A stretch of 64,000 nucleotides of DNA, taken from IMG/VR virus record IMGVR_UViG_3300028840_004475, positions 64,001 to 128,000 of that record; one strand, 5' to 3'. Within the stretch, counting starts at the first letter, position 1; each line of letters begins with the position of its first letter. This DNA comes from a virus. The notes under the pieces were generated by a model that saw only the letters and a program-made list of their open reading frames with translations, was not told the origin of the DNA and ran no database searches. The translations under genes and the position numbers were made by a program. Positions 49,043 through 59,237 of the stretch are shown piece after piece.

Positions 49043-49062
49043 TCCGCCCCTGATTTTTCTGA

Positions 49063-49130
49063 TTGACAAGTACCCCACAAGTACCCTACTTCTGTACCCT
49101 ACAAGTACGTTATAAAACATTCAGGTACGG
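49063..49130 (+). promoter_or_regulatory. Promoter of the Ro60 gene with GTAC-core direct repeats
   Basis: TTGACA at 49063; ACAAGTACCC twice, TTCTGTACCC, ACAAGTACGT, TCAGGTACGG; TATAAA at 49111. Confidence 0.6.
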
Positions 49131-49139
49131 AGCAGGATC

Positions 49140-50873
49140 ATGCAGACCTTCACCGAGGCAACGCGCTGGCGGAAGCCGACCAAGCGCAAGGGCAACGGCC
49201 GCAACTACGCCCAGCAGCGCCAGGTCATCCCAGGCAAGAGCCGGCTCATGACTTCGACCTCGAGCGGCACCAAGGCCTTCAAGGTGGACGACTGGGGTCG
49301 CCTCGCCCGCTTCCTGATCCTGGGAGCAGACAAGCCGACCTTCTACGCGACGAAGCGCCAGCTGGTGCGGGACAACGCGAGGGTGGTCGAGCGCTGCATC
49401 AAGGAAGACGGTATCCGTACCGTGGACCTGATCGCGGAAGTGTCGATTCAGGGCTCGGCGCCGAACAACGACCCGGCCCTGTTTGCGCTGGCAATGTGCG
49501 CGACCCTGGGTGGCCTCCACACCCGCCAGTACGCCCTCGGGCGCCTGTCGGACGTGGCGCGGATCGGAACGCACCTGTTCCACTTCGTGGCCTACTGCGA
49601 GGGTCTCGGTCACGGCTGGGGCCGGAACATGCGACGTGCGATCCGTGGGTGGTACAACGAGAAGGCGCCGGACAAGCTGGCGTATCAGATCCTGAAGTAC
49701 AAGCAGCGTGACGGCTGGTCGCACAAGGATCTGCTCGCTCTGGCTCACCCGCGCACTTCGAACAAGGAACGTGATGCCATCTACCGGTACATCGTGGCCG
49801 GCATCGATGGTCTGGGCAAGCGTACTGTCCTGAAGCACAACGGCCGCCGGAAGGTCCGCAAGACCTACCCGGACGTGTCACGTCACCTGCCGGCGCAGAT
49901 CTTCGCCGCGCACGACGTGCACAAGGTCAGCAAGCGGAAGGCCAAGCAGCTCATCGAAGAGCACCGCATGACCCATGAGATGGTGCCGAACGAGCTGAAG
50001 AACGACCCAGAGGTCTGGGAGATCATGCTCGAGACGATGCCCATCGGAGCGATGGTGCGGAACCTCGGCAAGATGACCAGCATCGGCCTCCTGGACCGGA
50101 TGTCCAGGGCCTCGAAGCTGGTGATCGACCGGCTGGGCGACATGGAGCGGATCCGTCGGGCGCGTCTGCACCCGATCGAGTTCCTCAAGGCCAACCGTGT
50201 CTACGGTGCCGGCCGCGGGGACAAGGGATCGCTGTGCTGGGATCCGGTGCGCGGGATCGTCCGAGCACTGGACGACGGGTTCTACCTGGCCTTCGGCGCG
50301 ATCGAGCCGAGCGGCGTGAACACTGGTCTGTTCATCGACGTCTCTGGTTCGATGGCATGGGACACCTCACGCGTGAAGTCGATGGCGAACATGACCGCAC
50401 GTGAGCTGTCAGGTGCCATGGCCCTGGTGACGGCGAACGTGGAGCCGTACTGGGAGATCATCGCCTTCTCCGGCGGCTACGACTCGCTCGAGGAGATCCC
50501 GATCGAGCCCGGCATGAAGCTGGACACGGTCGTGAACAGGATGGAGCGTATGCGAGCCGGCAGCACGAACCTGTCGCTACCGTTCGAGTACGCACGTGGA
50601 CGCGGTGTCCCGATCGAGACGTTTATCGTCTACACAGACAACGAGACGAATCACTTCGGCTCGCTGCATCCGTCGGAGGCACTGCGCAGGTACCGGAAAG
50701 AGACCGGCATCGACGCGAAGCTGATCGTGGTCGGCATGGTGGCGAACGACATCTCGATCGCTGACCCGACCGATCACGGCATGTTGGATGTAGTTGGGTT
50801 CGACACGAACGCTCCGTCAGTGATGGCGGACTTCGCGAAGGGCGCCTACGAGATCGACGTCGAGCAGGGCTGA
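49140..50873 (+). CDS. rsr: Ro60/Rsr TROVE-domain RNA-binding protein
   Basis: DDW.RL.RFLILG....FY, RIGTHLFHF, KYKQRDGWSHKDLL.LAHP, A..RNLGKMT, vWA MIDAS DVSGSM, YTDNET, DPTD.GMLDVVGFD. Confidence 0.97.
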   Translation: MQTFTEATRWRKPTKRKGNGRNYAQQRQVIPGKSRLMTSTSSGTKAFKVDDWGRLARFLILGADKPTFYATKRQLVRDNARVVERCIKEDGIRTVDLIAEVSIQGSAPNNDPALFALAMCATLGGLHTRQYALGRLSDVARIGTHLFHFVAYCEGLGHGWGRNMRRAIRGWYNEKAPDKLAYQILKYKQRDGWSHKDLLALAHPRTSNKERDAIYRYIVAGIDGLGKRTVLKHNGRRKVRKTYPDVSRHLPAQIFAAHDVHKVSKRKAKQLIEEHRMTHEMVPNELKNDPEVWEIMLETMPIGAMVRNLGKMTSIGLLDRMSRASKLVIDRLGDMERIRRARLHPIEFLKANRVYGAGRGDKGSLCWDPVRGIVRALDDGFYLAFGAIEPSGVNTGLFIDVSGSMAWDTSRVKSMANMTARELSGAMALVTANVEPYWEIIAFSGGYDSLEEIPIEPGMKLDTVVNRMERMRAGSTNLSLPFEYARGRGVPIETFIVYTDNETNHFGSLHPSEALRRYRKETGIDAKLIVVGMVANDISIADPTDHGMLDVVGFDTNAPSVMADFAKGAYEIDVEQG

Positions 50874-50882
50874 CACGAGTTT

Positions 50883-50943
50883 GAGGGCCGGACGGCTTGG
50901 GTTATCTTGCAACGATACCCCCCAGGCCAAACACTTTGCCCTC
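50883..50943 (+). ncRNA. Y RNA 1 (minimal)
   Basis: GAGGGCCGGA..CTTGGGTTATC...CCCAGG..ACTTTGCCCTC; Ro-binding-type stem with bulged C. Confidence 0.8.
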
Positions 50944-50952
50944 TTCAAGTTT

Positions 50953-51071
50953 GGCTGACGTAGCGATGTGGAAGGACACATGAGAGACGGCAGTAGCCCA
51001 AGGCTAGGTGTGTGCCGCCCCGTTTAGAGGAATCCTTGGGGAGCTGGTATCAAGGCCAGTCTGCGTCAGTC
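50953..51071 (+). ncRNA. Unknown structured RNA within the Y RNA array
   Basis: 11-bp terminal stem GGCTGACGTAG/CTGCGTCAGTC plus internal hairpins. Confidence 0.6.
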
Positions 51072-51088
51072 GTTCTATGGAAGGATTT

Positions 51089-51199
51089 GTGGGCCGAATG
51101 GATTGCAGGGTTATCGATGGTTCGAATCCACCTGGCGGGTCTAAACCACCCGCTATCGCCTAGCTGGTTAAGGCACCCCTGTACCAACAACTTGCCCAC
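51089..51199 (+). ncRNA. Y RNA 2 (YrlA-like: T arm, acceptor hairpin, D arm)
   Basis: GTGGGCCGA...CTTGCCCAC stem; GGTTCGAATCC; TGGCGGGT/ACCCGCTA; GCCTAGCTGGTTAAGGC. Confidence 0.85.
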
Positions 51200-51216
51200 T
51201 TTGAATTATGGGAGTT

Positions 51217-51344
51217 GCGGGCCGTAGACTGAACGTTATCTAAGCGCGCAATTTTGCGCTTATAGCTCAGTTGGTAGAGCGCCGGGGGTAGCCTCGGAGG
51301 TCGAGGGTTCGAATCCCTAACGACGTTCTTTCAGCTTTGTCCGC
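51217..51344 (+). ncRNA. Y RNA 3 (acceptor hairpin, D, anticodon, T)
   Basis: GCGGGCCGTA...TTGTCCGC; TAAGCGC/GCGCTTA; TAGCTCAGTTGGTAGAGC; GGGTTCGAATCCC. Confidence 0.8.
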
Positions 51345-51366
51345 GCCCTACCTATTAGAGGAGTTT

Positions 51367-51429
51367 GAGGGCCGGAAGTCTTGGGTTATCACTTCGGATG
51401 ATGCTTCCCAGGACACTAACTTTGCCCTC
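51367..51429 (+). ncRNA. Y RNA 4 (minimal)
   Basis: GAGGGCCGGA.GTCTTGGGTTATC...CCCAGGAC..ACTTTGCCCTC. Confidence 0.8.
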
Positions 51430-51448
51430 GTTTCTATACACTGAGTTT

Positions 51449-51515
51449 GTGGGCCGGAGGCAACGGGTTACCTTTCATTTGGAGAAAACACACCCATCGC
51501 CAACAACTTGCCCAC
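51449..51515 (+). ncRNA. Y RNA 5 (minimal)
   Basis: GTGGGCCGGA...GGGTTACC...CCC...ACTTGCCCAC. Confidence 0.75.
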
Positions 51516-51534
51516 TTCGTTTTGAGAGGAGTTT

Positions 51535-51665
51535 GCGGGCCGTACGAAATAGGTTACCAATGCAAACTGTAGGTCGCGGGTTCGAGTCCCGTCATCGGCA
51601 CCATGCCGATGTAGATCAGCTGGTAGATCAACAGTGGTTACACGCCTACTTCACTTTTTGCCCGC
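51535..51665 (+). ncRNA. Y RNA 6 (YrlA-like, permuted tRNA retaining ACCA)
   Basis: GCGGGCCGTA...TTGCCCGC; ACTGT/ACAGT; T arm; CATCGGC-ACCA-T-GCCGATG; D arm. Confidence 0.85.
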
Positions 51666-51687
51666 GTTTCAAAGGACACTATGGTTT

Positions 51688-51819
51688 GAGGGCCGGACGC
51701 ACGTTGGGTTATCCACTCATAATGGAGAGGTCGCAGGTTCGAATCCTGTCGTGGCTTTAGCGAGTCACGTAGCTCAGTTGGTCAGAGCGCTAAACCCCCA
51801 ATGTCAACTATTTGCCCTC
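51688..51819 (+). ncRNA. Y RNA 7 (CAT anticodon arm, T, acceptor, D)
   Basis: GAGGGCCGGA...TTTGCCCTC; TCCA-CTCATAA-TGGA; T arm; CGTGGCT/AGTCACG; D arm. Confidence 0.85.
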
Positions 51820-52503: not shown

Positions 52504-52587
52504 GGATCGGTAGCTGAGCTGGTTTAGCAGCGGGCTGTTAACCCGTGCCCTCGGGCTACGTGGGTTCGAGTCCCACCCGATCCGCCA
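52504..52587 (+). tRNA. tRNA-Asn(GTT), long variable arm
   Basis: Cloverleaf, CCA. Confidence 0.85.
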
Positions 52588-52590
52588 TGT

Positions 52591-52659
52591 GGGCGCCAGG
52601 CTATGGCAGCCAAGCGGGCTCCAACCCCGCAGGACAGGGTTCGATTCCTTGGGCGCTCG
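52591..52659 (+). tRNA. tRNA-Trp(CCA), divergent
   Basis: Short D loop; anticodon arm GCGGG-CTCCAAC-CCCGC; no CCA end. Confidence 0.65.
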
Positions 52660-52674
52660 TAGAAAGAAAAATGT

Positions 52675-52750
52675 GGACTCGTCGCTGAGTTGGTTCAGGC
52701 GCCTGGTTGAAGCCCAGGAGACGTTGGTTCGATTCCAACCGAGTCCACCA
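52675..52750 (+). tRNA. tRNA-Phe(GAA)
   Basis: Cloverleaf, CCA. Confidence 0.9.
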
Positions 52751-52753
52751 AAC

Positions 52754-52829
52754 GCGGGCATAGCCCAACTGGTAGGAGGCGACGGTTTTAAGGTCCGTTC
52801 AGTGGTGGGTTCGAATCCCCCTGCCCGTA
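52754..52829 (+). tRNA. tRNA-Leu(TAA), short variable loop
   Basis: Cloverleaf with one anticodon-stem mismatch. Confidence 0.7.
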
Positions 52830-52898
52830 TTCAAGGAAACGAACGAAAACTGAAATAAGGAGGTCGCCTCGAGCCCATGTTTCAAAAGATCAGCACAT

Positions 52899-52981
52899 GT
52901 CAGAGTGGCGGAATTGGTAGACGCGCAGGCCCGAGGAGCCTGTACTTCGGTGTGAGGGTTCGACTCCCTCCTCTGACACCA
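52899..52981 (+). tRNA. tRNA-Leu(GAG)
   Basis: Cloverleaf, CCA. Confidence 0.9.
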
Positions 52982-52984
52982 TGT

Positions 52985-53075
52985 GTAGCGGTGGCTGAGC
53001 GGTTGAAAGCACCAGACTGTAGATCTGGAGATCCGAAAGGGTCCAACGGTGGTTCGAATCCATCCCGCTACACCA
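52985..53075 (+). tRNA. tRNA-Tyr(GTA)
   Basis: Cloverleaf, long variable arm, CCA. Confidence 0.92.
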
Positions 53076-53078
53076 TAT

Positions 53079-53154
53079 GCCCGTCTACCCCAATCTGGTA
53101 CGAGGGGCTCGGCTCAGACCCGAGATGTTCCCGGTTCGAATCCGGGGGCGGGCA
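53079..53154 (+). tRNA. tRNA-Leu(CAG), short variable loop
   Basis: Cloverleaf. Confidence 0.8.
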
Positions 53155-53259
53155 AAATGAAAAGCCCCTGGCCACAGTGACCAGGGGCACCCTCGCTCCT
53201 CGGGGGAAGGACAACGAAGGTGAGCTGATCGTAGCAGGAGGCGAACATAGTTCAAGTGT

Positions 53260-53342
53260 GCCGGGGTGGCGGAATTGGAATACGCGCTGGCCTCAAGCAC
53301 CAGTGCTTCGGCATGAGGGTTCGACTCCCTCTCCCGGCACCA
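53260..53342 (+). tRNA. tRNA-Leu(CAA)
   Basis: Cloverleaf, CCA. Confidence 0.9.
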
Positions 53343-53343
53343 T

Positions 53344-53435
53344 GGAAGGTTGGCCGATGTTGGGATGGCGCCTGCTTGGAAAGCAGAGACCGGCCCGAGA
53401 GGGTCGCAGAGGTTCGATTCCTCTACCTTCCGCCA
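53344..53435 (+). tRNA. tRNA-Ser(GGA)
   Basis: Cloverleaf, long variable arm, CCA. Confidence 0.88.
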
Positions 53436-53436
53436 T

Positions 53437-53511
53437 GGGCAGTGGGTCTGTCGGGATGGATGCTGGATTGCAACCCCAGAGAAACTGGTTCGACTCCAGT
53501 ACTGCCCTCCA
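53437..53511 (+). tRNA. tRNA-Cys(GCA)
   Basis: Cloverleaf, U73, CCA; weak D arm. Confidence 0.8.
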
Positions 53512-53543
53512 AAAAAAGAGGGGCCCTCGAGGGCCCCTCTTTA
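53512..53543. terminator. Bidirectional terminator
   Basis: AAAGAGGGGCCC-TCGA-GGGCCCCTCTTT between convergent units. Confidence 0.8.
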
Positions 53544-53560
53544 GCAGTCACCTCAGTTGA

Positions 53561-54085
53561 CTAGGCGGCTTCGAGCAGCACGAAGTAGATGTCGCCGCGG
53601 AACTCGACCCAGTCGCCGACGGAACCGGCCGTGTACGAGACGCTGACGGCGGTTCCGTTGCACACGTGTCCCTCAGGAACCAGCACGCCACCACCGCTCT
53701 CGTCGACTGCCAGGAGTGCGCCGAGGGTCTGACCAGTGTTCAGGAGAGTCGGCTTCTGGATGCCGACGGCGCTGCAGTCGATGCCGACACCGAAGCCATC
53801 AGCGTCACCACCAACCTCGGTGGAGAGCAGACCAATGTCCATGGTCTTGGTGGCACCGGTGACCTCGGCGGCCGTCACGTCCACGTAGTATCCAAGGACG
53901 ACACTCTTCAGCGGAAGGTCGACGCCGCTGTCCTGCTCGGTTCCATCGGGAGCCGCAGTGATCGGAACCCGGAGGGTCTTCGTGACTGCACCGCTCGCAC
54001 TGAGATCACATTGTTCGTTGATCTCTGTGGCGGTGGCAGTGATCGACTCCATCCACCTCTTGATAGGACGAACGATAAACCACAT
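53561..54085 (-). CDS. Putative virion accessory (beta-sandwich) protein
   Basis: AGGAGG RBS; LP..SVV....VDVT.A.....T.DIG.......DGF pattern. Confidence 0.55.
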   Translation of the reverse strand: MWFIVRPIKRWMESITATATEINEQCDLSASGAVTKTLRVPITAAPDGTEQDSGVDLPLKSVVLGYYVDVTAAEVTGATKTMDIGLLSTEVGGDADGFGVGIDCSAVGIQKPTLLNTGQTLGALLAVDESGGGVLVPEGHVCNGTAVSVSYTAGSVGDWVEFRGDIYFVLLEAA

Positions 54086-54283
54086 ATTCAGCCTCCTCGT
54101 ACCTAGCCAGGGCACGGTCTCCCACTGAACCATTCAATGGGGTTACACCCTCGTTGGGGATTGGCTGTGCATATACTGCTACACATTGGCATTTATGTGC
54201 AACACAACTTTCTGGGAGATCAACCGAGAATTATCTTGACTGATCGAATAGCGATCTCTTACGGTGAAGATCTCATGTTGTAC

Positions 54284-54483
54284 TCGTTGACCAGGAAAGC
54301 CAGACCATCCGTCGCCACAGCAGTGGCGAAGCGGACGGGCATGTGCCTGGTTATCGAGGGACAGACCCGCCATTTTCGAGATCCCAGCGCGGCGTAAACT
54401 GTCCTTCAGCACTGGGAACCCGAAATCGGACAGACTCGAAAGTAACCAGGCTGGACGACAGCTGCGTCGCATCTGCTGATGCA
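54284..54483 (+). ncRNA. Unknown multi-domain structured RNA ahead of a tRNA block
   Basis: Several nested helices downstream of a TTGACT promoter (54237). Confidence 0.5.
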
Positions 54484-54490
54484 CGCCTGT

Positions 54491-54568
54491 GGGGGTGTGG
54501 CCTAGTCTGGTCTAGGGCGCCTGACTGTCGATCAGGAGACTTCGCCGGTTCGAATCCGGTCGCCCCCG
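54491..54568 (+). tRNA. tRNA-Asp(GTC)
   Basis: Cloverleaf. Confidence 0.9.
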
Positions 54569-54579
54569 CTCTTTTTTGT

Positions 54580-54657
54580 GCGTCCGTAGCTGAATTGGAT
54601 CAGCGCAGGTCTACGAAGCCTGGTCGTATGAGAGTTCGAGTCTCTCCGGGCGCGCCA
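54580..54657 (+). tRNA. tRNA-Arg(ACG)
   Basis: Cloverleaf, CCA. Confidence 0.9.
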
Positions 54658-54670
54658 GGAGACGAAGTGT

Positions 54671-54746
54671 TGCGGTGTAGCTCAGCTGGTAGAGCGTCTG
54701 ACTCTGGATCAGAAGGTCGTCGGTTCGAGACCGGCCGCCGCTGCCA
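54671..54746 (+). tRNA. tRNA-Gln(CTG)
   Basis: Cloverleaf, CCA. Confidence 0.9.
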
Positions 54747-54754
54747 TGTTTTGA

Positions 54755-54832
54755 TGCGACGTAGAGCAGTCTGGTTAGCTCAGGTGGCTCATAACCACCA
54801 GGTCGTGGGTTCAAATCCCACCGTCGCTACCA
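54755..54832 (+). tRNA. tRNA-fMet(CAT), initiator-like
   Basis: 1:72 mismatch, GAGC D stem, CCA. Confidence 0.85.
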
Positions 54833-54877
54833 CTTTTGAGGGCGGTGTGTCCTGGGCATTCCGCCCAGGAGACATTC

Positions 54878-54954
54878 GCTCCCGTAGCTCAGTTGGTCAG
54901 AGCGCTGGTCTGATAAACCAGAGATCGTTGGTTCAAGTCCAACCGGGAGTACCA
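54878..54954 (+). tRNA. tRNA-Ile(GAT)
   Basis: Cloverleaf, CCA. Confidence 0.92.
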
Positions 54955-54958
54955 TTTT

Positions 54959-55034
54959 GCCGGGGTAGTTCAGTTGGTAGAACGCCGGTGTCACATACCG
55001 GAGGTCGCTGGTTCGAACCCAGCTCCCGGTACCA
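54959..55034 (+). tRNA. tRNA-Val(CAC)
   Basis: Cloverleaf, CCA. Confidence 0.9.
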
Positions 55035-55047
55035 GATAGGTGGTTGA

Positions 55048-55122
55048 CCCCGTGTCGTCTAACTGGAAGGACGCCAGGTTTCCAACCTGGAGGTCTCGGT
55101 TCGGTTCCGAGTACGGGGTCCA
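55048..55122 (+). tRNA. tRNA-Gly(TCC)
   Basis: Cloverleaf, U73, CCA. Confidence 0.82.
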
Positions 55123-55160
55123 ATTCTTGGGGTTGAAAGGGTAAGTAGAGATGAACAACT

Positions 55161-55232
55161 GGATCCGTAGCTCAGCGGTTGAGCAGCTCCCTCATAAGGA
55201 GAAGGGCGTTGGTTCAAATCCAACCGGGTCCA
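55161..55232 (+). tRNA. tRNA-Met or Ile2 (CAT)
   Basis: Cloverleaf. Confidence 0.85.
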
Positions 55233-55263
55233 TCAGACGAAGGCGGCGGCGGTAGCAATATGT

Positions 55264-55340
55264 GCCCACGTAGCCTAATTGGAGAGGCAACTGATTTCTA
55301 CTCAGTTAATATGCGGGTTCGAGTCCTGCCGTGGGCGCCA
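55264..55340 (+). tRNA. tRNA-Arg(TCT)
   Basis: Cloverleaf, CCA. Confidence 0.88.
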
Positions 55341-55343
55341 TGT

Positions 55344-55415
55344 GCGCTCGTAGCCTAGCGGAGAGGCACTGGCCTCCGAAGCCAGACCACGTAGGTTCGA
55401 ATCCTGCCGAGCGCG
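55344..55415 (+). tRNA. tRNA-Arg(CCG)
   Basis: Cloverleaf. Confidence 0.9.
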
Positions 55416-55472
55416 CAAAGGAGGTTGACATCGCGAACCATCTCGTTTAATTTCAAATGAGGAGGTCCGCAA

Positions 55473-56081
55473 ATGGCCAAGAAAGAAGAACGCAAACAAG
55501 CTAGAACTATGCGCAGGGGTGGAAAGTCGATAGTACAAATTGCGAAATTACTTGGTGTATCAAAATCAAGTGTATATTTATGGACAAAGGATTTACCTCA
55601 ACCAAGAAAATTCACGAAAGAATATCGACGTAAACGAAAAGAAAAAGCTCTAGCACGTTTGAAGAAAGAAAGAGAGAAACGAGAGAAAGAAAAAGCGAAT
55701 CGCAAACTATTGAGTTGCGGAGATAGATGGATCATACGAGTGCCACCTGGGTACAAAGGCAAAACATATATCGGAGGAAGATACGTTCTTCAAAGTAGAT
55801 ATTTGATGGAACAAAAACTTGGAAGATACCTAAAATATAACGAGTGTGTTCACCATAAAAACGGGGATAAACTGGACGATAGAATTGAGAATTTGGAATT
55901 ACATACTAGGAAATTACATGGAGAGATACATGCAATTAGAAAAAGGACTAAACTCAAATGTCCAATATGTGATGTAGAATTTGAACGCAAAAACAGTTAT
56001 GTGAAAAGTCACATAAAACAAGGATACAAAGGTTTTTATTGTAGCAAAAGGTGTGCGGCCAAGAAACAAAAGGGAGTATAG
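55473..56081 (+). CDS. HNH homing endonuclease with an N-terminal HTH
   Basis: VHHKNGDKLDDRIENLEL motif, C-terminal CxxC..YCSKRC; AT-rich. Confidence 0.9.
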   Translation: MAKKEERKQARTMRRGGKSIVQIAKLLGVSKSSVYLWTKDLPQPRKFTKEYRRKRKEKALARLKKEREKREKEKANRKLLSCGDRWIIRVPPGYKGKTYIGGRYVLQSRYLMEQKLGRYLKYNECVHHKNGDKLDDRIENLELHTRKLHGEIHAIRKRTKLKCPICDVEFERKNSYVKSHIKQGYKGFYCSKRCAAKKQKGV

Positions 56082-56148
56082 CTCAGCTGTTAGCAGCATT
56101 CGGCTTTTAACCGAAAGGTCGTGGGTTGGAACCCCACTGCTCCCACCA
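56072..56148 (+). tRNA. tRNA-Lys(TTT)
   Basis: Cloverleaf, CCA; T loop TTGGAAC. Confidence 0.85.
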
Positions 56149-56149
56149 T

Positions 56150-56226
56150 GGGTTCGTAGCTCAAGTAGGCAGAGCATCCGGTTCTTACCCGGAAGGTTGG
56201 GGGATCGTGGCCCTCCGAGCCCACCA
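56150..56226 (+). tRNA. tRNA-Lys(CTT)
   Basis: Cloverleaf, CCA; atypical T loop ATCGTGG. Confidence 0.82.
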
Positions 56227-56392
56227 AAGGAAAGACGATGTGCCCGAAGCGAGACGAAGACATGGAATTCATGAGGCGTTCACTCGAGCGCCCGTGCGAA
56301 CCATTTTTCTGGCCGAAGGATCCGGATGACCAACCGGCCTACGGCTACGAGGAAGAGGACAGGATCGAATACGATCCACCACAAAGGAGAAA

Positions 56393-56743
56393 GTGATGTT
56401 GGTCGAGGTAGGCACAGTGAAGTACGTCGTGAACTGGAAGCACGAGCGTGAGTTCGACAGGTACGCGCTCGTCCAGGACGCACAAGTGTCCGGCGATGCA
56501 AAGTTGCTACGAGCGCTGGAGCTGTCCACAGGGCGTACCATCTGTCGCATCGAGAAGCTTGGTGGTACGTCAGAGGTCGAAGCAACGGTGTACTGCTCGA
56601 AGAAGGACATCTTCGAGAAGGACGAGGGTCGGAAGAGATCCCTCAAGAGGGCACTCGCGTTGCGTGGCTTCATGAAGCAGGAGAGAACGCTCTTCTGGGA
56701 CGAGTACCACAACCGGAAGCCTCAGACGGCAGAGGCTGCGTAG
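56393..56743 (+). CDS. Hypothetical phage protein
   Basis: AGGAG RBS; CS.KD.F.K..GR..SL.RA motif. Confidence 0.6.
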   Translation: MMLVEVGTVKYVVNWKHEREFDRYALVQDAQVSGDAKLLRALELSTGRTICRIEKLGGTSEVEATVYCSKKDIFEKDEGRKRSLKRALALRGFMKQERTLFWDEYHNRKPQTAEAA

Positions 56744-56755
56744 GAGTGAGCACGA

Positions 56756-56831
56756 CCGCGTATAGTTCAGTTGGTAGAATGCAACCTTGCCAAGGTTGAT
56801 GTCGTGGGTTCGAACCCCACTACGCGGTCCA
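56756..56831 (+). tRNA. tRNA-Gly(GCC)
   Basis: Cloverleaf, U73, CCA. Confidence 0.9.
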
Positions 56832-56838
56832 ATTTCGT

Positions 56839-56913
56839 GCCCGAATAGTTCAGTGGTAGAACGCTTGCTCGACACGCAAGAGGTCGTTGGTTCGATACCA
56901 ACTTCGGGCACCA
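56839..56913 (+). tRNA. tRNA-Val(GAC)
   Basis: Cloverleaf, CCA. Confidence 0.9.
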
Positions 56914-56972
56914 GGCCGGCTGTGGCCAAACCATTACGGTGGTTCCGGGAGCACCCGGGCAGCCGGCCCCCA
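56914..56972 (+). ncRNA. Mini tRNA-like RNA with a CCA end
   Basis: 9-bp stem GGCCGGCTG/CAGCCGGCC + C-CCA; two internal hairpins. Confidence 0.5.
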
Positions 56973-56973
56973 T

Positions 56974-57049
56974 GCTGGGGTAGTTCAGATGGTGGAACGC
57001 GTCCTTGGTAAGGACGAGGTCGCGGGTTCGAGCCCCGCCCCTAGCTCCA
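56974..57049 (+). tRNA. tRNA-Thr(GGT)
   Basis: Cloverleaf, CCA. Confidence 0.92.
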
Positions 57050-57051
57050 AC

Positions 57052-57127
57052 GCTGGCGTAGTTCAGGAGGTAGAACAGGTCACTCGTAATGATCAGGTCG
57101 CTGGTTCAATTCCAGCCGTCAGCTCCA
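57052..57127 (+). tRNA. tRNA-Thr(CGT)
   Basis: Cloverleaf, CCA. Confidence 0.92.
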
Positions 57128-57128
57128 T

Positions 57129-57204
57129 GCTGGGTTAGCTCAGTTGGTAGAGCAGCTGATTTGTAATCAGCAGGTCGCAGGTTCGAGCCCTGTCCCCAGC
57201 TCCA
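57129..57204 (+). tRNA. tRNA-Thr(TGT)
   Basis: Cloverleaf, CCA. Confidence 0.92.
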
Positions 57205-57308
57205 GGAAGAATGATGTTGGACAAAATAGACAAGTTCGTTCGTGACTACCTGCTATTGCCGGCGACATTCGTGTACGCGGCACTGCAGATTTGGAGGCTG
57301 TTTATTGT

Positions 57309-57385
57309 GGGGTCATAGCTCAGTTGGGAGTAGCGCCTGCCTTGCAAGCAGGAGGTCGTCGGTTCGATCCCGTCTGACTCCACCA
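57309..57385 (+). tRNA. tRNA-Ala(TGC)
   Basis: Cloverleaf, G3:U70, CCA. Confidence 0.92.
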
Positions 57386-57466
57386 GCCGACCCGCGGTGA
57401 AATGTCATTGGTGTGGCCCCGTGTCAATGACAGAAGGCAGCCTACGGGGCATTTGTAGGAGGTTCT

Positions 57467-57542
57467 GTTCCCGTCGTCTAGCGGTCTAGGATCTCGGCCT
57501 CTCACGCCGAGGACGCGGGTTCGAGTCCCGCCGGGAACACCA
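57467..57542 (+). tRNA. tRNA-Glu(CTC)
   Basis: Cloverleaf, CCA. Confidence 0.92.
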
Positions 57543-57618
57543 GGCCGAACCACAGGGCCGAGGCAATCGTTTGATGTGGTGACAGCCCGGAGAGACGGGC
57601 ACTGTGGGCGTGTGCTGT

Positions 57619-57693
57619 GGCGTGTGTAGCTCAGTGGTAGAGCGTACGGCTGTGGCCCGTACTGTCGCGGGTTCGATTCCCGTCATACGCCCA
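57619..57693 (+). tRNA. tRNA-His(GTG)
   Basis: Cloverleaf with G-1:C73. Confidence 0.88.
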
Positions 57694-57750
57694 CCTTTTT
57701 TGTTGACGACCTGCAAAAGATCTCGATAATAGATCATGCAGGAGGAAGTT

Positions 57751-57867
57751 ATGTTCCGCTACACGATGGCAGCCATTTTCTTCATCGACCATTTCAACGC
57801 CGGTCATCTGCCGTCGCCATCCTCACCCTCGCCATCAGAACGACCCTCGAGTCCGCCGCAACGCTAA
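57751..57867 (+). CDS. Putative 38-aa leader peptide before a tRNA block
   Basis: TTGACG-N17-GATAAT promoter, AGGAGG RBS. Confidence 0.4.
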   Translation: MFRYTMAAIFFIDHFNAGHLPSPSSPSPSERPSSPPQR

Positions 57868-57875
57868 CACGCTTT

Positions 57876-57965
57876 GGTGCGATGGCCTAACTGGTAGGGA
57901 AGCGGTTTGCTAAACCGTCCGGGCGTTCACGCGTTCTGAAGGTTCGAGTCCTTCTCGCACCGCCA
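57876..57965 (+). tRNA. tRNA-Ser(GCT)
   Basis: Cloverleaf, long variable arm, CCA. Confidence 0.88.
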
Positions 57966-57968
57966 TAT

Positions 57969-58044
57969 CGGAGAGTGGGGTATACGGTAGCCCACCTGTT
58001 TCGGGGACAGGATGATGTCGGTTCGAGTCCGGCCTCTCCGACCA
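57969..58044 (+). tRNA. tRNA-Pro(CGG)
   Basis: Cloverleaf, CCA. Confidence 0.87.
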
Positions 58045-58122
58045 CGGGGTATAGCTCAGTTTGCGTAGAGCGTTTGGTTTGGGACCAAAAAGCCGGGGGT
58101 TCGAATCCCTCTACCCCGACCA
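58045..58122 (+). tRNA. tRNA-Pro(TGG)
   Basis: Cloverleaf, CCA. Confidence 0.9.
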
Positions 58123-58123
58123 T

Positions 58124-58216
58124 GGATGGACAAGCCGATGGTTGGCGACGGCACCTGCCTCGAAAGCAGGCGAACCCGAAAGGGCCTTGGGGGTTCGATC
58201 CCCTCTCCATCCGCCA
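58124..58216 (+). tRNA. tRNA-Ser(CGA)
   Basis: Cloverleaf, long variable arm, CCA. Confidence 0.88.
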
Positions 58217-58219
58217 TTT

Positions 58220-58297
58220 GGGACGTGACTCTGTCAGACACGCAGGCAGAGGGGTAGAGAAGTCGTGCTCTCCCGGTTCGAGTCCGGCGCGTCCCCA
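58220..58297 (+). ncRNA. Non-canonical tRNA-like RNA
   Basis: Acceptor stem and T arm intact; D and anticodon arms replaced by atypical hairpins. Confidence 0.55.
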
Positions 58298-58298
58298 C

Positions 58299-58389
58299 GG
58301 AAGGCTGGCAGAATGGCTATTGCACCTGATTTGAAATCAGAGGTCGGCCTGAGAGGGTCGTGCGGGTTCGAGTCCTGCGCCTTCCGCCA
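58299..58389 (+). tRNA. tRNA-Ser(TGA)
   Basis: Cloverleaf, long variable arm, CCA. Confidence 0.9.
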
Positions 58390-58480
58390 ATTTTTAATGC
58401 AAAAATAGTCGCTGTACAACGTAGCTATTTATGATATCAAAAAAGATCTGTACGCCAACACCAAACAAACGAGGAAACAG

Positions 58481-58756
58481 ATGACTGGCATCCAGATCGA
58501 CGTCAACTACAAGACCAGAGGCCGCAACAAGGCCGCCACCTTCACTGCGGCATACCGCAACAGAGTCGTGCCGGCTGACGTCACTGTCCCAATCCGTAGG
58601 GGACGACCGACCTACACCCTGACGATTCCGACGCCGGTCAACATCGGCAATGGTGACACACTTTCGTTCACCATGAAGAATCTGGACGCCGCACTGGCTG
58701 CTCTAGCAGACTATGCGAAGAAGTGGCCGGCGCTCAACAAGGCCGGTATGGCCTAG
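58481..58756 (+). CDS. Hypothetical protein
   Basis: GAGG RBS, 91 aa. Confidence 0.55.
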   Translation: MTGIQIDVNYKTRGRNKAATFTAAYRNRVVPADVTVPIRRGRPTYTLTIPTPVNIGNGDTLSFTMKNLDAALAALADYAKKWPALNKAGMA

Positions 58757-58774
58757 AACAGAAGAGGAGATAAG

Positions 58775-59056
58775 ATGGCTGCGAAGGCAATGACGAAGAC
58801 AGAGATCTGCAAGAAGCTGGCAGAAGCCAACGACATGAAACCGAAGGAGGCAAAGCTCTTCCTCGAATCGCTGGCACAGCTGGCCTACAAGGAGGCGAAG
58901 AACGGCTTCACCATCCCTGGCATCGGCAAGCTCGTCAAGCAGCGCCGTAAGGCGCGTGACGGTCGCAACCCGGCCACCGGTGAGAAGATCCGCATCAAGG
59001 CCAAGACCGTCCTGAAGTTCAGGGTCTCGAAGGTCGCGAAGGACGCGATTCTGTAG
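58775..59056 (+). CDS. hup: HU family DNA-binding protein
   Basis: MTKTE, F.IPGIGK, RKAR.GRNPATGE.I.I.AK..LKFR. Confidence 0.95.
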   Translation: MAAKAMTKTEICKKLAEANDMKPKEAKLFLESLAQLAYKEAKNGFTIPGIGKLVKQRRKARDGRNPATGEKIRIKAKTVLKFRVSKVAKDAIL

Positions 59057-59063
59057 CAATACA

Positions 59064-59137
59064 GCTCCTGTCGTTCAATGGTAGGACGCCGGGTTTTCAA
59101 CCCGGTAACCGGGGATCAATACCCCGCAGGAGCACCA
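59064..59137 (+). tRNA. tRNA-Glu(TTC)
   Basis: Cloverleaf, CCA; T loop ATCAATA. Confidence 0.85.
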
Positions 59138-59162
59138 ACCTTGCCGCCTTCGGGCGGCTTTT

Positions 59163-59237
59163 GGGGGCATCGTCCAATGGCTAGGACATCGGCCTTTGGA
59201 GCCGGCGATGAGGGTTCGAGTCCCTCTGCCCCTTCCA
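59163..59237 (+). tRNA. tRNA-Gln(TTG)
   Basis: Cloverleaf, CCA. Confidence 0.9.

What the first reader, a model, noticed from the sequence alone, without database searches (positions are those of the whole stretch)
49140..51819. Phage Ro60 gene followed by a tandem array of seven Y RNAs
Seen: starting 10 nt after the TROVE stop there are seven units (50883, 51089, 51217, 51367, 51449, 51535, 51688) sharing GNGGGCCG.A...G(G)TTA(T/C)C...TTGCCCNC. Their terminal stems covary (GAGGGC/GCCCTC, GTGGGC/GCCCAC, GCGGGC/GCCCGC), each is preceded by an (A/G)GTTT-like flank, and the middles are wholly different. Known: Ro60 binds a bulged-C stem formed by Y RNA 5' and 3' ends (metazoan GGUCCGA..GGGUUAUC/UUGAC); bacterial rsr loci usually carry one or two Y RNAs; Y RNA tethers effectors such as PNPase to Rsr in Deinococcus. 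Inference: one Ro ring with seven interchangeable RNA adaptors, a modular RNP toolkit that could recruit different host enzymes or act as decoys, placed at the head of a 37-tRNA array.
Basis: partly seen in the sequence, partly recalled or inferred. Interest (0 to 1): 0.95.

Follow-up and report, generated by a model that had tools for sequence, protein, structure and literature searches.

The report
Phage Ro60 with seven Y RNAs
An uncultured 148-kb phage encodes the ring protein Ro60 followed by seven small RNA genes that share Ro60's known RNA "handle", four of them carrying tRNA look-alikes; this is an enlarged version of a known protein-RNA partnership, not a new kind of system.

Summary
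Seven units sit at the stated coordinates, starting 9 nt after the Ro60 stop. The shared motif occurs 7 times against 0 expected by chance.

Each unit closes with the same handle:
- a 6-bp stem that covaries (A-U, U-A or C-G at pair 2)
- a bulged C, then GNA
- a unit-specific second helix, then GGUUAYC

A covariance model built from 67 such units in about 40 other phage Ro60 loci finds exactly these seven in the 64-kb window. On that alignment, 16 of 17 pairs show compensatory changes.

The middles are not seven different things:
- three units are minimal hairpins
- three are YrlA-type permuted tRNAs
- one has the D-to-T order seen in Yrn1

Phage Ro60 with Y RNAs is already published (Chen 2014; phiLo 2025), with one or two RNAs per locus. 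My scans show that arrays are common. Counts reach 11 in phage contigs and 6 in bacterial genomes, with 3 to 5 in cultured actinophages. This scan has also flagged such arrays on other DNA.

Binding to Ro60, processing into units and function all remain untested. No RNA data were available. I rate this a new variant of a known kind, of moderate interest.

The parts
49140..50873 (+). Ro60 (TROVE + vWA) gene, 577 aa
   Evidence: Pfam TROVE and vWA_Ro60 both score far above their cut-offs. The MIDAS-type D-x-S-x-S is invariant in the alignment of relatives (D400, S402, S404). The closest solved structures are an entry named RNA-binding protein RO60 (9nen) and the 60-kDa SS-A/Ro ribonucleoprotein (1yvp), E about 1e-99 and 5e-97, ahead of the Ro sixty-related protein Rsr (2nvo, 1e-88).
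50883..50943 (+). U1: minimal Y RNA, 61 nt (handle flavour A, GAGGGC/GCCCTC), with an apical 4-bp stem and a 7-nt loop UUGCAAC
   Evidence: R2 score 73.1 bits, E 6e-23. Fold z-score -2.6. In a related strain all 6 listed changes fall in unpaired positions.
50952..51072 (+). X: a structured element of about 120 nt inside the array. It has a 12-bp closing helix and four hairpins, the same TTTG.../...GTT punctuation as the units, and a 5' strand reading GACGTAG, but no bulged C and no Y-type 3' strand.
   Evidence: MFE -54.3 kcal/mol, z-score -2.8. No Rfam match, no R2 match even with filters off, and no sequence relative in 87 loci. Its identity is unexplained.
51089..51199 (+). U2: YrlA-type Y RNA, 111 nt (flavour B, GTGGGC/GCCCAC), with cargo in the order T-loop, closed acceptor-like hairpin, D-arm
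   Evidence: R2 score 47.7 bits, E 5e-14. The T-loop motif GGTTCGAATCC is present, and a hairpin of 7-8 bp and a D-arm appear in the fold.
51217..51344 (+). U3: tRNA-like Y RNA, 128 nt (flavour C, GCGGGC/GTCCGC, GTA). Its cargo runs closed acceptor hairpin, D-arm, short anticodon-like hairpin, T-arm, which is the D-to-T order of Yrn1.
   Evidence: R2 score 22.1 bits, E 4e-5, the weakest of the seven. Rfam tRNA scores 27.6 bits at 51256-51325 with the acceptor stem unpaired. Fold.
51367..51429 (+). U4: minimal Y RNA, 63 nt (flavour A)
   Evidence: R2 score 71.5 bits. Rfam sbRNA family RF01656 scores 23.9 bits. Fold z-score -2.6.
51449..51515 (+). U5: minimal Y RNA, 67 nt (flavour B)
   Evidence: R2 score 63.3 bits. 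Rfam sbRNA family RF01656 scores 31.1 bits, E 0.0014, against a gathering score of 38.
51535..51665 (+). U6: YrlA-type Y RNA, 131 nt (flavour C). Its cargo is a complete circularly permuted tRNA. The acceptor hairpin reads 3' strand, A, CCA, U, 5' strand.
   Evidence: R2 score 37.2 bits. Rfam YrlA scores 42.5 bits. When the two halves are rejoined in tRNA order with any 7-nt loop, ARAGORN calls a 76-nt tRNA with a 7-bp acceptor stem and an ACCA end.
51688..51819 (+). U7: YrlA-type Y RNA, 132 nt (flavour A), with an extra small hairpin ahead of the T-arm and an 8-bp closed acceptor hairpin
   Evidence: R2 score 48.1 bits. Rfam YrlA scores 49.1 bits, E 4e-9, against a gathering score of 69. Fold.
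52504..59237 (+). Context: 37 tRNA genes on the same strand, starting 684 nt after U7. Most encode CCA, and some neighbours are 1 nt apart.
   Evidence: ARAGORN; gene ends listed.

Best explanation
The 940 nt behind the phage Ro60 gene form a row of seven Y RNA genes, plus one unrelated structured RNA (X). I infer that the row is transcribed together with Ro60 and then cut at the short U-rich spacers.

Each RNA pairs its 5' and 3' ends into the Ro60-binding handle. The handle is a 6-bp stem, a bulged C, G.U pairs, an internal loop, a second helix and GGUUAYC. I infer that the phage Ro60 ring binds it as animal and bacterial Ro60 bind their Y RNAs.

Three RNAs are bare handles with a small apical hairpin, like YrlB or Yrn2. 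Four display a tRNA-shaped domain. Three of these are YrlA-type, in which the handle takes the place of the anticodon loop. One has the D-to-T order of Yrn1.

By analogy with Rsr-Y RNA-PNPase and with phiLo Ro60-Yrl-PNPase, the RNAs would gate the Ro60 cavity and tether Ro60 to host tRNA- or RNA-handling proteins during infection. A likely role is RNA or tRNA quality control, given the phage's large tRNA set.

Shown here: the genes, the handle, the covariation, the tRNA mimicry and the link to Ro60 across phages. Inferred: transcription, processing, binding, partners and role.
For: - Ro60 is genuine.
- The motif occurs 7 times against 0 expected.
- All seven handles are fully paired and pair 2 covaries.
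- Model R2, built from 67 units of which 62 come from other phages, finds these seven and nothing else in 64 kb at E <= 10. A coarser whole-genome search found 4 of the 7 units and nothing outside the array.
- On that alignment 93.6% of cells are paired and 16 of 17 pairs have changes on both sides. Slid controls give 36-53%.
- RNAalifold on an independent MAFFT alignment of 26 short units reproduces both helices, and 11 of 14 pairs are compensated.
- All 173 hits in 81 phage loci and all 143 hits in 80 cellular loci lie on the Ro60 strand.
- Rfam gives YrlA hits for U6 and U7 and sbRNA hits for U4 and U5.
- U6's cargo is a full permuted tRNA.
- No terminator-like site separates Ro60 from the array or the units from one another. 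The only + strand match is a weak one inside U1's own handle.
- In a related strain, the stems of U1 are untouched while its loops changed.
- Published precedent exists: two or more Y RNAs per bacterium, one tRNA-like and one hairpin, processed from one precursor that can include a tRNA (PMC4201824). phiLo Ro60 binds two phage Y-like RNAs and host PNPase (PMC12135203).
Against: - There are no expression data. No RNA run holds this sequence.
- No unit reaches an Rfam gathering score. YrlA scores 49 and 42.5 against 69; sbRNA scores 31 against 38.
- Only U2 fits the published bacterial motif GNCGAA exactly. The others read GCCGGA or GCCGTA.
- U3 scores weakly and lacks the AAC part of the 3' strand.
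- The covariation alignment was fitted to the model's own structure.
- The phage has no RtcB and no CCA-adding enzyme, and its neighbouring genes are uninformative. The proposed role therefore rests on analogy alone.
Confidence: 0.8

Rival explanations
1. The units act in cis. They would be folded punctuation in a long Ro60-tRNA transcript, serving as RNase barriers, processing sites or stabilisers, rather than free RNAs that bind Ro60.
For: There is no promoter or terminator consensus within the array. Spacers are tight at 17-22 nt and have conserved U-rich ends. The array lies on the same strand as Ro60 and 37 tRNA genes.
Against: A cis role does not explain a handle that matches the Ro60-binding site of Y RNAs on both strands. 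It does not explain why the handle is found only beside Ro60 genes, on their strand, in about 67 of 81 phage loci and whether upstream or downstream. It also does not explain the tRNA-like cargo.
Confidence: 0.06
2. The RNAs are tRNA-mimic decoys or sponges that work mainly without Ro60. For example, they could soak up host tRNA-cutting defence nucleases or tRNA enzymes, and Ro60 would only stabilise them.
For: Four units are close tRNA mimics. Many minimal units across phages carry 7-nt loops with U at position 2 and a purine at position 6, like anticodon loops. The locus sits next to a 37-tRNA set.
Against: The only part conserved across phages is the Ro60 handle, not the cargo. There is no direct evidence for any nuclease target. 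The loop pattern was read from predicted minimum-energy folds only.
Confidence: 0.1
3. The units are decayed or rearranged tRNA genes, the debris of the neighbouring tRNA array, with no function of their own.
For: T-arm and D-arm sequences are tRNA-like. U6 keeps an ACCA-U junction like the one between adjacent tRNA genes in this phage.
Against: Three units have no tRNA part at all. The handle is conserved and covaries across unrelated phages. The stems are kept in a diverged strain. The permuted order is the published YrlA design.
Confidence: 0.02
4. The repeats are protein-coding (ORF 51365-51760, 131 aa) or are DNA-level protein-binding sites.
For: An open frame spans U4 to U7.
Against: The unit periods are 82, 86 and 153 nt, which puts the shared motif in different frames. 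The two sides of each stem change together, and that is selection on RNA pairing.
Confidence: 0.02

Closest known systems
Bacterial Rsr with YrlA and YrlB (Salmonella Typhimurium, Mycobacterium smegmatis; Rfam RF02553; Chen et al. 2014, PMC4201824; structure preprint 10.1101/312249)
   Same: The RNAs are encoded next to Ro60 on the same strand. The ends pair into a handle carrying a GNCGAA-type 5' strand. One type carries a circularly permuted tRNA (T-arm, closed acceptor stem, D-arm) and the other is a plain hairpin. They are processed from one precursor.
   Different: There are seven units instead of two. The 3' strand of the handle is also conserved, which is described as lost in YrlA. The motif reads GCCG(G/T/A)A. 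No unit reaches the Rfam cut-off. The locus is not in an rtcBA repair operon, and the genome has no RtcB.
Deinococcus radiodurans Rsr with Yrn1 and Yrn2 (PMC4201824)
   Same: Both strands of the animal-type handle are kept. Yrn1 has the D-to-T order with a hairpin in the anticodon position, as U3 does. Yrn2 is a plain hairpin. The precursor is polycistronic and includes a tRNA.
   Different: There are two confirmed RNAs, not seven. The host is a cell, not a phage. U3 also has a closed acceptor hairpin.
Thermus phage phiLo Ro60 with Yrl1 and Yrl2 (NAR 2025, PMC12135203)
   Same: A phage-encoded Ro60 sits next to phage-encoded Y-like RNAs. Binding, and a ternary complex with host PNPase, were shown in vitro.
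   Different: The proteins are only distantly related (E 5e-8, N-terminal third only). phiLo has two RNAs, upstream of the gene, and the paper describes no tRNA-like domain in what I read.
Animal Y RNAs and nematode stem-bulge RNAs (Rfam RF01656)
   Same: The handle has a bulged C, a GG(U/G)CCGA-type 5' strand, a UUG(A/C)CC-type 3' strand and a (G)GUUAUC box. The minimal units hit RF01656 at 31 and 24 bits. This Ro60 scores better against the entries named RO60 and SS-A/Ro than against Rsr.
   Different: The scores are below the family cut-off. The genes are in a tandem polycistronic row rather than separate Pol III genes. The resemblance to individual human Y RNAs is from my memory and was not tested here.
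Y-type RNAs of cultured actinophages (a YrlA was published for mycobacteriophage ET08; PMC4201824)
   Same: R2 finds 3 units just upstream of Ro60 in Mycobacterium phage Stubby, 5 in Streptomyces phage Blueeyedbeauty, 3 in Gordonia phage Mareelih and 2 in Sollertia. Many lie among tRNA genes.
   Different: Those arrays are smaller. The records do not annotate them, and in Stubby they lie under the CDS calls gp215 and gp216. Ro60 is only 35-39% identical to this one.

Membership tests
Ro60 / Rsr protein | A TROVE (HEAT-repeat ring) domain followed by a vWA domain with a MIDAS motif | tested here: met
   Pfam TROVE 142.8 bits and vWA_Ro60 171.1 bits. D-x-S-x-S is invariant among relatives. Full-length matches to solved Ro60 and Rsr structures.
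Y RNA (Ro60 partner RNA) | Encoded close to the Ro60 gene on the same strand (the bacterial and phage criterion of Chen 2014: within 4 kb, same strand) | tested here: met
   The units lie 9 to 946 nt after the stop codon, on the + strand.
Y RNA (Ro60 partner RNA) | The 5' and 3' ends pair into a helix carrying the conserved Ro60-binding sequence with a bulge | tested here: met
   All seven have a 6-bp stem, a bulged C, then G.U. The published bacterial motif GNCGAA(N)G is matched exactly only by U2. The other units have G or T at the fifth position.
Y RNA (Ro60 partner RNA) | The structure is kept by compensatory change among relatives | tested here: met
   16 of 17 pairs show changes on both sides, and 93.6% of cells are paired against 36-53% when slid. 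An independent RNAalifold run agrees. Caveat: the first alignment was fitted to the model.
Y RNA (Ro60 partner RNA) | Physically bound by Ro60 and dependent on it for stable accumulation | not testable with these tools
   This needs EMSA or RIP. No RNA run was listed.
YrlA (Rfam RF02553) | Score at or above the family's gathering threshold (69 bits) | tested here: not met
   U7 scores 49.1 and U6 scores 42.5; U2 and U3 are not listed. The Ro60-adjacent RNAs of cultured phages that I scanned score no better: Stubby 37.4 and Mareelih 52.1.
YrlA (Rfam RF02553) | A tRNA-like domain in the order T-arm, closed acceptor-like stem, D-arm, with the handle in the place of the anticodon arm | tested here: met
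   Met for U2, U6 and U7. U6 rejoined in tRNA order is called a 76-nt tRNA by ARAGORN. Not met for U1, U3, U4 and U5.
Nematode sbRNA (Rfam RF01656) | Score at or above the gathering threshold (38 bits) | tested here: not met
   U5 scores 31.1 and U4 scores 23.9. This is a resemblance of the handle only.

The most novel reading that the evidence does not exclude
The seven RNAs together display the separate faces of a tRNA on one Ro60 handle. Four units show the elbow and acceptor end. The minimal units show anticodon-loop-like heptaloops. Together they would let the phage Ro60 capture or distract host enzymes that attack or modify tRNAs, such as anticodon nucleases, and so protect the phage's own 37-tRNA supply. 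On this reading the three handle flavours, which run A-B-C-A-B-C-A along the array, would set different Ro60 affinities or keep neighbouring units from mispairing in the precursor.
Probability: 0.12. Interest if true: 0.8.

Novelty: new variant of a known kind. Interest (0 to 1): 0.5.

Why it matters
Ro60 and Y RNAs are studied mainly as a lupus autoantigen complex and as a bacterial RNA-decay helper. In both settings the RNA decides what the ring does.

This phage, and many others found here with the same model, suggest that Y RNA families are larger and more modular than the one or two per locus in print. One handle carries bare hairpins and two different tRNA permutations.

Some cultured phages carry smaller versions. 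Streptomyces phage Blueeyedbeauty has 5 and the Bixzunavirus mycobacteriophages have 3. The questions of what each RNA recruits, and why the locus sits by tRNA genes, can therefore be tested directly at the bench.

U6 also gives unusually direct sequence support for the published idea that YrlA arose from the junction of two tandem tRNA genes.

Tried and rejected
- Megablast of the locus against 50,697 phage records found no match. The nearest phage Ro60 there is 41% identical, so no close orthologous array was available.
The contigs of the closest proteins (59% and 57% identity) could therefore not be fetched.
It misaligned U6 and missed U3. It was replaced by R2.
- The genome search with R2 lost the long units: 4 of 7 in the own genome, and likewise in other records. 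Per-locus counts come from cmsearch instead.
- No RNA holder was listed for this stretch, so expression and RNA ends could not be examined. Contigs from four DNA metagenomes were laid instead.
- The promoter and terminator consensus scans were uninformative. No promoter-like site was found, and the four terminator-like matches are about what the shuffles give.
- RtcB and the CCA-adding enzyme family are absent from the genome. Ten neighbouring ORFs gave only an HNH endonuclease and small PHROG families of unknown function.
- Element X has no Rfam match, no R2 match and no sequence relative.
- Two review papers (PMC10870794, PMC6047535) and the supplement of Chen 2014 were not held. I could not check whether multiple hits per phage were tabulated there.
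- I rejected a coding reading, a DNA-repeat reading and a tRNA-debris reading, for the reasons given under the rival explanations.
Full report
**What is there.** The window is bases 64001-128000 of a 147,747-bp viral record with direct terminal repeats. ORF 49140-50873 (+) is a full Ro60. It has Pfam TROVE and vWA_Ro60 domains and an invariant D-x-S-x-S among its relatives. It gives end-to-end matches to solved chains named RNA-binding protein RO60 (9nen, E 1e-99) and 60-kDa SS-A/Ro ribonucleoprotein (1yvp, E 5e-97), ahead of the Ro sixty-related protein Rsr (2nvo, 1e-88). It is far from the Thermus phage phiLo protein (5e-8). The motif GGGCCGNA-N(4-12)-GTTAYC occurs seven times in 64 kb, all here, against none in 100 shuffles.

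**Anatomy of a unit.** Each unit closes with a 6-bp stem that is fully paired in all seven. Pair 2 is A-U in U1, U4 and U7, U-A in U2 and U5, and C-G in U3 and U6. A bulged C follows, then G.U, then a second helix whose sequence is private to each unit but always pairs, then GGUUAYC. The 3' strand reads (A)AC..CUUUGCCC. This is the both-strand handle of animal and Deinococcus Y RNAs. Chen et al. 2014 describe the YrlA handle differently, as recognisable only on its 5' strand (PMC4201824).

**Spacers and coding.** Spacers are 17-22 nt with U-rich ends, apart from 145 nt between U1 and U2. The unit periods are 82, 86 and 153 nt. The shared motif therefore falls in different reading frames, which rules out a repeat protein despite the 131-aa open frame that spans U4 to U7.

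**The middles fall into three classes, not seven.**
- U1, U4 and U5 (61-67 nt) have only a small apical hairpin.
- U2, U6 and U7 (111-132 nt) carry a T-arm, a closed acceptor-like hairpin and a D-arm in that order. This is the published YrlA design, a circularly permuted tRNA with the handle in place of the anticodon loop (PMC4201824; 10.1101/312249).
- U3 (128 nt) runs closed acceptor hairpin, D-arm, short anticodon-like hairpin, T-arm. This is the D-to-T order described for Yrn1.

Rfam gives sub-threshold YrlA hits for U7 (49.1 bits) and U6 (42.5 bits) against a cut-off of 69. It gives a near-threshold tRNA hit inside U3. It also gives hits of U5 (31.1 bits) and U4 (23.9 bits) to the nematode stem-bulge RNA family, which are Y RNA relatives.

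U6 is the cleanest case. Its acceptor hairpin reads 3' strand, A, CCA, U, 5' strand. When its two halves are rejoined in tRNA order with any 7-nt loop, ARAGORN calls a 76-nt tRNA with a 7-bp acceptor stem.

**Is the handle a real, selected RNA structure?** No close relative of the locus was available, so I used distant ones. An alignment of the nearest Ro60 proteins brought in 80 viral loci.
- A seed model from U1, U4 and U5 found 109 matches in these loci, all but one on the Ro60 strand.
- The 67 best matches, 62 of them from other phages, were aligned and used to build model R2.
- On that alignment 93.6% of cells pair, 16 of 17 pairs show changes on both sides, and sliding the partner by 1-3 columns drops pairing to 36-53%.
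- That alignment is fitted to the model. I therefore also ran RNAalifold on a plain MAFFT alignment of 26 short units. It predicts the same two helices, with 11 of 14 pairs compensated.
- R2 then finds exactly the seven units in the window and nothing else at E <= 10, including U6 and U3, which the seed model had mishandled.
- A diverged strain in another metagenome has six listed changes in U1. All lie in the loops and none in the stems (a single low-depth contig).

**How unusual is seven?** Not unique. R2 at E <= 0.01 gives 173 hits in the 81 viral loci, all on the Ro60 strand. The loci split as follows:

| Units per locus | 0 | 1 | 2 | 3 | 4 | 5 | 7 | 11 |
|---|---|---|---|---|---|---|---|---|
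| Number of loci | 14 | 15 | 26 | 11 | 10 | 3 | 1 | 1 |

- The larger arrays have the same design: spacers of 4-20 nt, and short and long units mixed, with both T-to-D and D-to-T orders.
- Cultured phages have them too, unannotated. Streptomyces phage Blueeyedbeauty has 5 among its tRNA genes, Mycobacterium phage Stubby has 3 under the CDS calls gp215 and gp216, Gordonia phage Mareelih has 3 among tRNA genes and a tmRNA gene, and Sollertia has 2.
- Eighty loci from bacterial and archaeal genomes give 143 hits, again all on the Ro60 strand, with up to 6 per locus.
- Seven is therefore in the upper tail of a continuous and widespread pattern.
- Earlier notes of this scan report similar arrays beside Ro60-like genes in other phages.

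**What is known.**
- Chen et al. 2014 found YrlA-like RNAs near Ro60 in 254 bacterial species and 22 phages. [quoted passage not shown]
- A 2025 paper showed that phiLo Ro60 binds two phage Y-like RNAs and forms a complex with host PNPase in vitro (PMC12135203).
- A jumbo-phage survey notes TROVE proteins in some phages (PMC7824862).
- I found no paper in the held library that describes rows of many Y RNAs. Two key reviews and the 2014 supplement were not available.

**Mechanism.** The likeliest account is that Ro60 and the array are one transcription unit. No terminator-like site separates Ro60 from the array or the units from one another; the only + strand match lies inside U1's own handle. 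The precursor would be cut in the spacers, each RNA would bind the phage Ro60 through its handle, and the cargo would decide what else joins. The tRNA-like units may be substrates for host tRNA enzymes. U2, U6 and U7 have acceptor-like stems of 7-8 bp, the feature that made M. smegmatis YrlA an RNase P substrate (PMC4201824). A role in RNA or tRNA quality control is suggested only by analogy and by the recurring position next to tRNA genes. The genome has no RtcB and no CCA-adding enzyme, and the neighbouring genes are uninformative. None of binding, processing or function could be tested, and no RNA data exist for this phage.

**Verdict.** Reading the units as Y RNAs is well supported. The idea of seven different adaptors is overstated. 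The system is an enlarged, mixed-cargo version of the known Ro60-Y RNA partnership, and it is one example of a pattern that is common in sequence databases but, as far as I could see, not described in print.

Noticed in passing
window 50952-51072: A structured element of about 120 nt (X) sits between U1 and U2. It has a 12-bp closing helix and four hairpins (z-score -2.8) and the same TTTG.../...GTT punctuation as the Y units. Its 5' strand reads GACGTAG, close to the GNCGAA-type motif, but it has no bulged C. It has no Rfam match, no R2 match and no sequence relative. Only one change is listed across it in a diverged strain, though the contig ends inside it. It may be an eighth RNA of another kind.
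   Followed up: partly
window 50883-51819: The handles come in three flavours. Each flavour shares its first 8-10 nt and most of its last 9-16 nt (identical for 16 nt in U2 and U5). A is GAGGGCCGGA with CUUUGCCCUC, B is GUGGGCCG with CCAACAACUUGCCCAC, and C is GCGGGCCGUA with UUUG(U/C)CCGC. They run A-B-C-A-B-C-A along the array, while the cargo does not follow that period. Only 2 of the 210 possible orders are this regular (a post hoc count). Possible causes are an old duplication of a three-unit block followed by cargo exchange, or selection against mispairing between neighbours.
   Followed up: partly
window 51566-51636 (U6): U6's acceptor hairpin reads acceptor 3' strand, A, CCA, U, acceptor 5' strand. 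This phage's tRNA genes mostly encode CCA, and some are 1 nt apart. U6 therefore looks like a preserved junction of two tandem copies of one tRNA gene. That supports the published dimeric-tRNA origin model for YrlA (10.1101/312249, citing Sim and Wolin 2018).
   Followed up: yes
A5 alignment (short units from about 40 phage loci); window U1 50907-50913: Of 59 minimal units, 24 have a 7-nt apical loop in the minimum-energy fold. Of those, 21 have U at position 2, 20 have a purine at position 6, and 15 fit Y-U-NNN-R, the anticodon-loop pattern (for example CUUGUAA, CUUCUAA, CUGCUAA). U1's loop is UUGCAAC, and in the diverged strain it becomes CUGCUAA, which keeps the pattern. This was read from predicted folds only.
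   Followed up: partly
L084 3568-3915 (Mycobacterium phage Stubby, MK450423.1 126914-127261): Three R2 hits, two minimal and one YrlA-type, lie directly upstream of the Ro-like gene. They overlap the annotated hypothetical-protein genes 215 and 216, which may therefore be RNA genes miscalled as CDS. Blueeyedbeauty, Mareelih and Sollertia also have unannotated units among their tRNA genes.
   Followed up: partly
window 49043-49139: The 97-nt stretch upstream of Ro60 holds TTGACA followed by three copies of GTACCC(C/T)AC and further GTAC words, then TATAAAA. This could be a phage-specific promoter or operator. The sigma-70 consensus scan found nothing there.
   Followed up: no
window 49140-50873: By phmmer score this phage Ro60 is closer to the solved chains named RO60 and SS-A/Ro (E 1e-99 and 5e-97) than to Rsr (1e-88). 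It is very far from the one structurally studied phage Ro60 (phiLo, 5e-8). This parallels the animal-like, both-strand handle of its RNAs.
   Followed up: no
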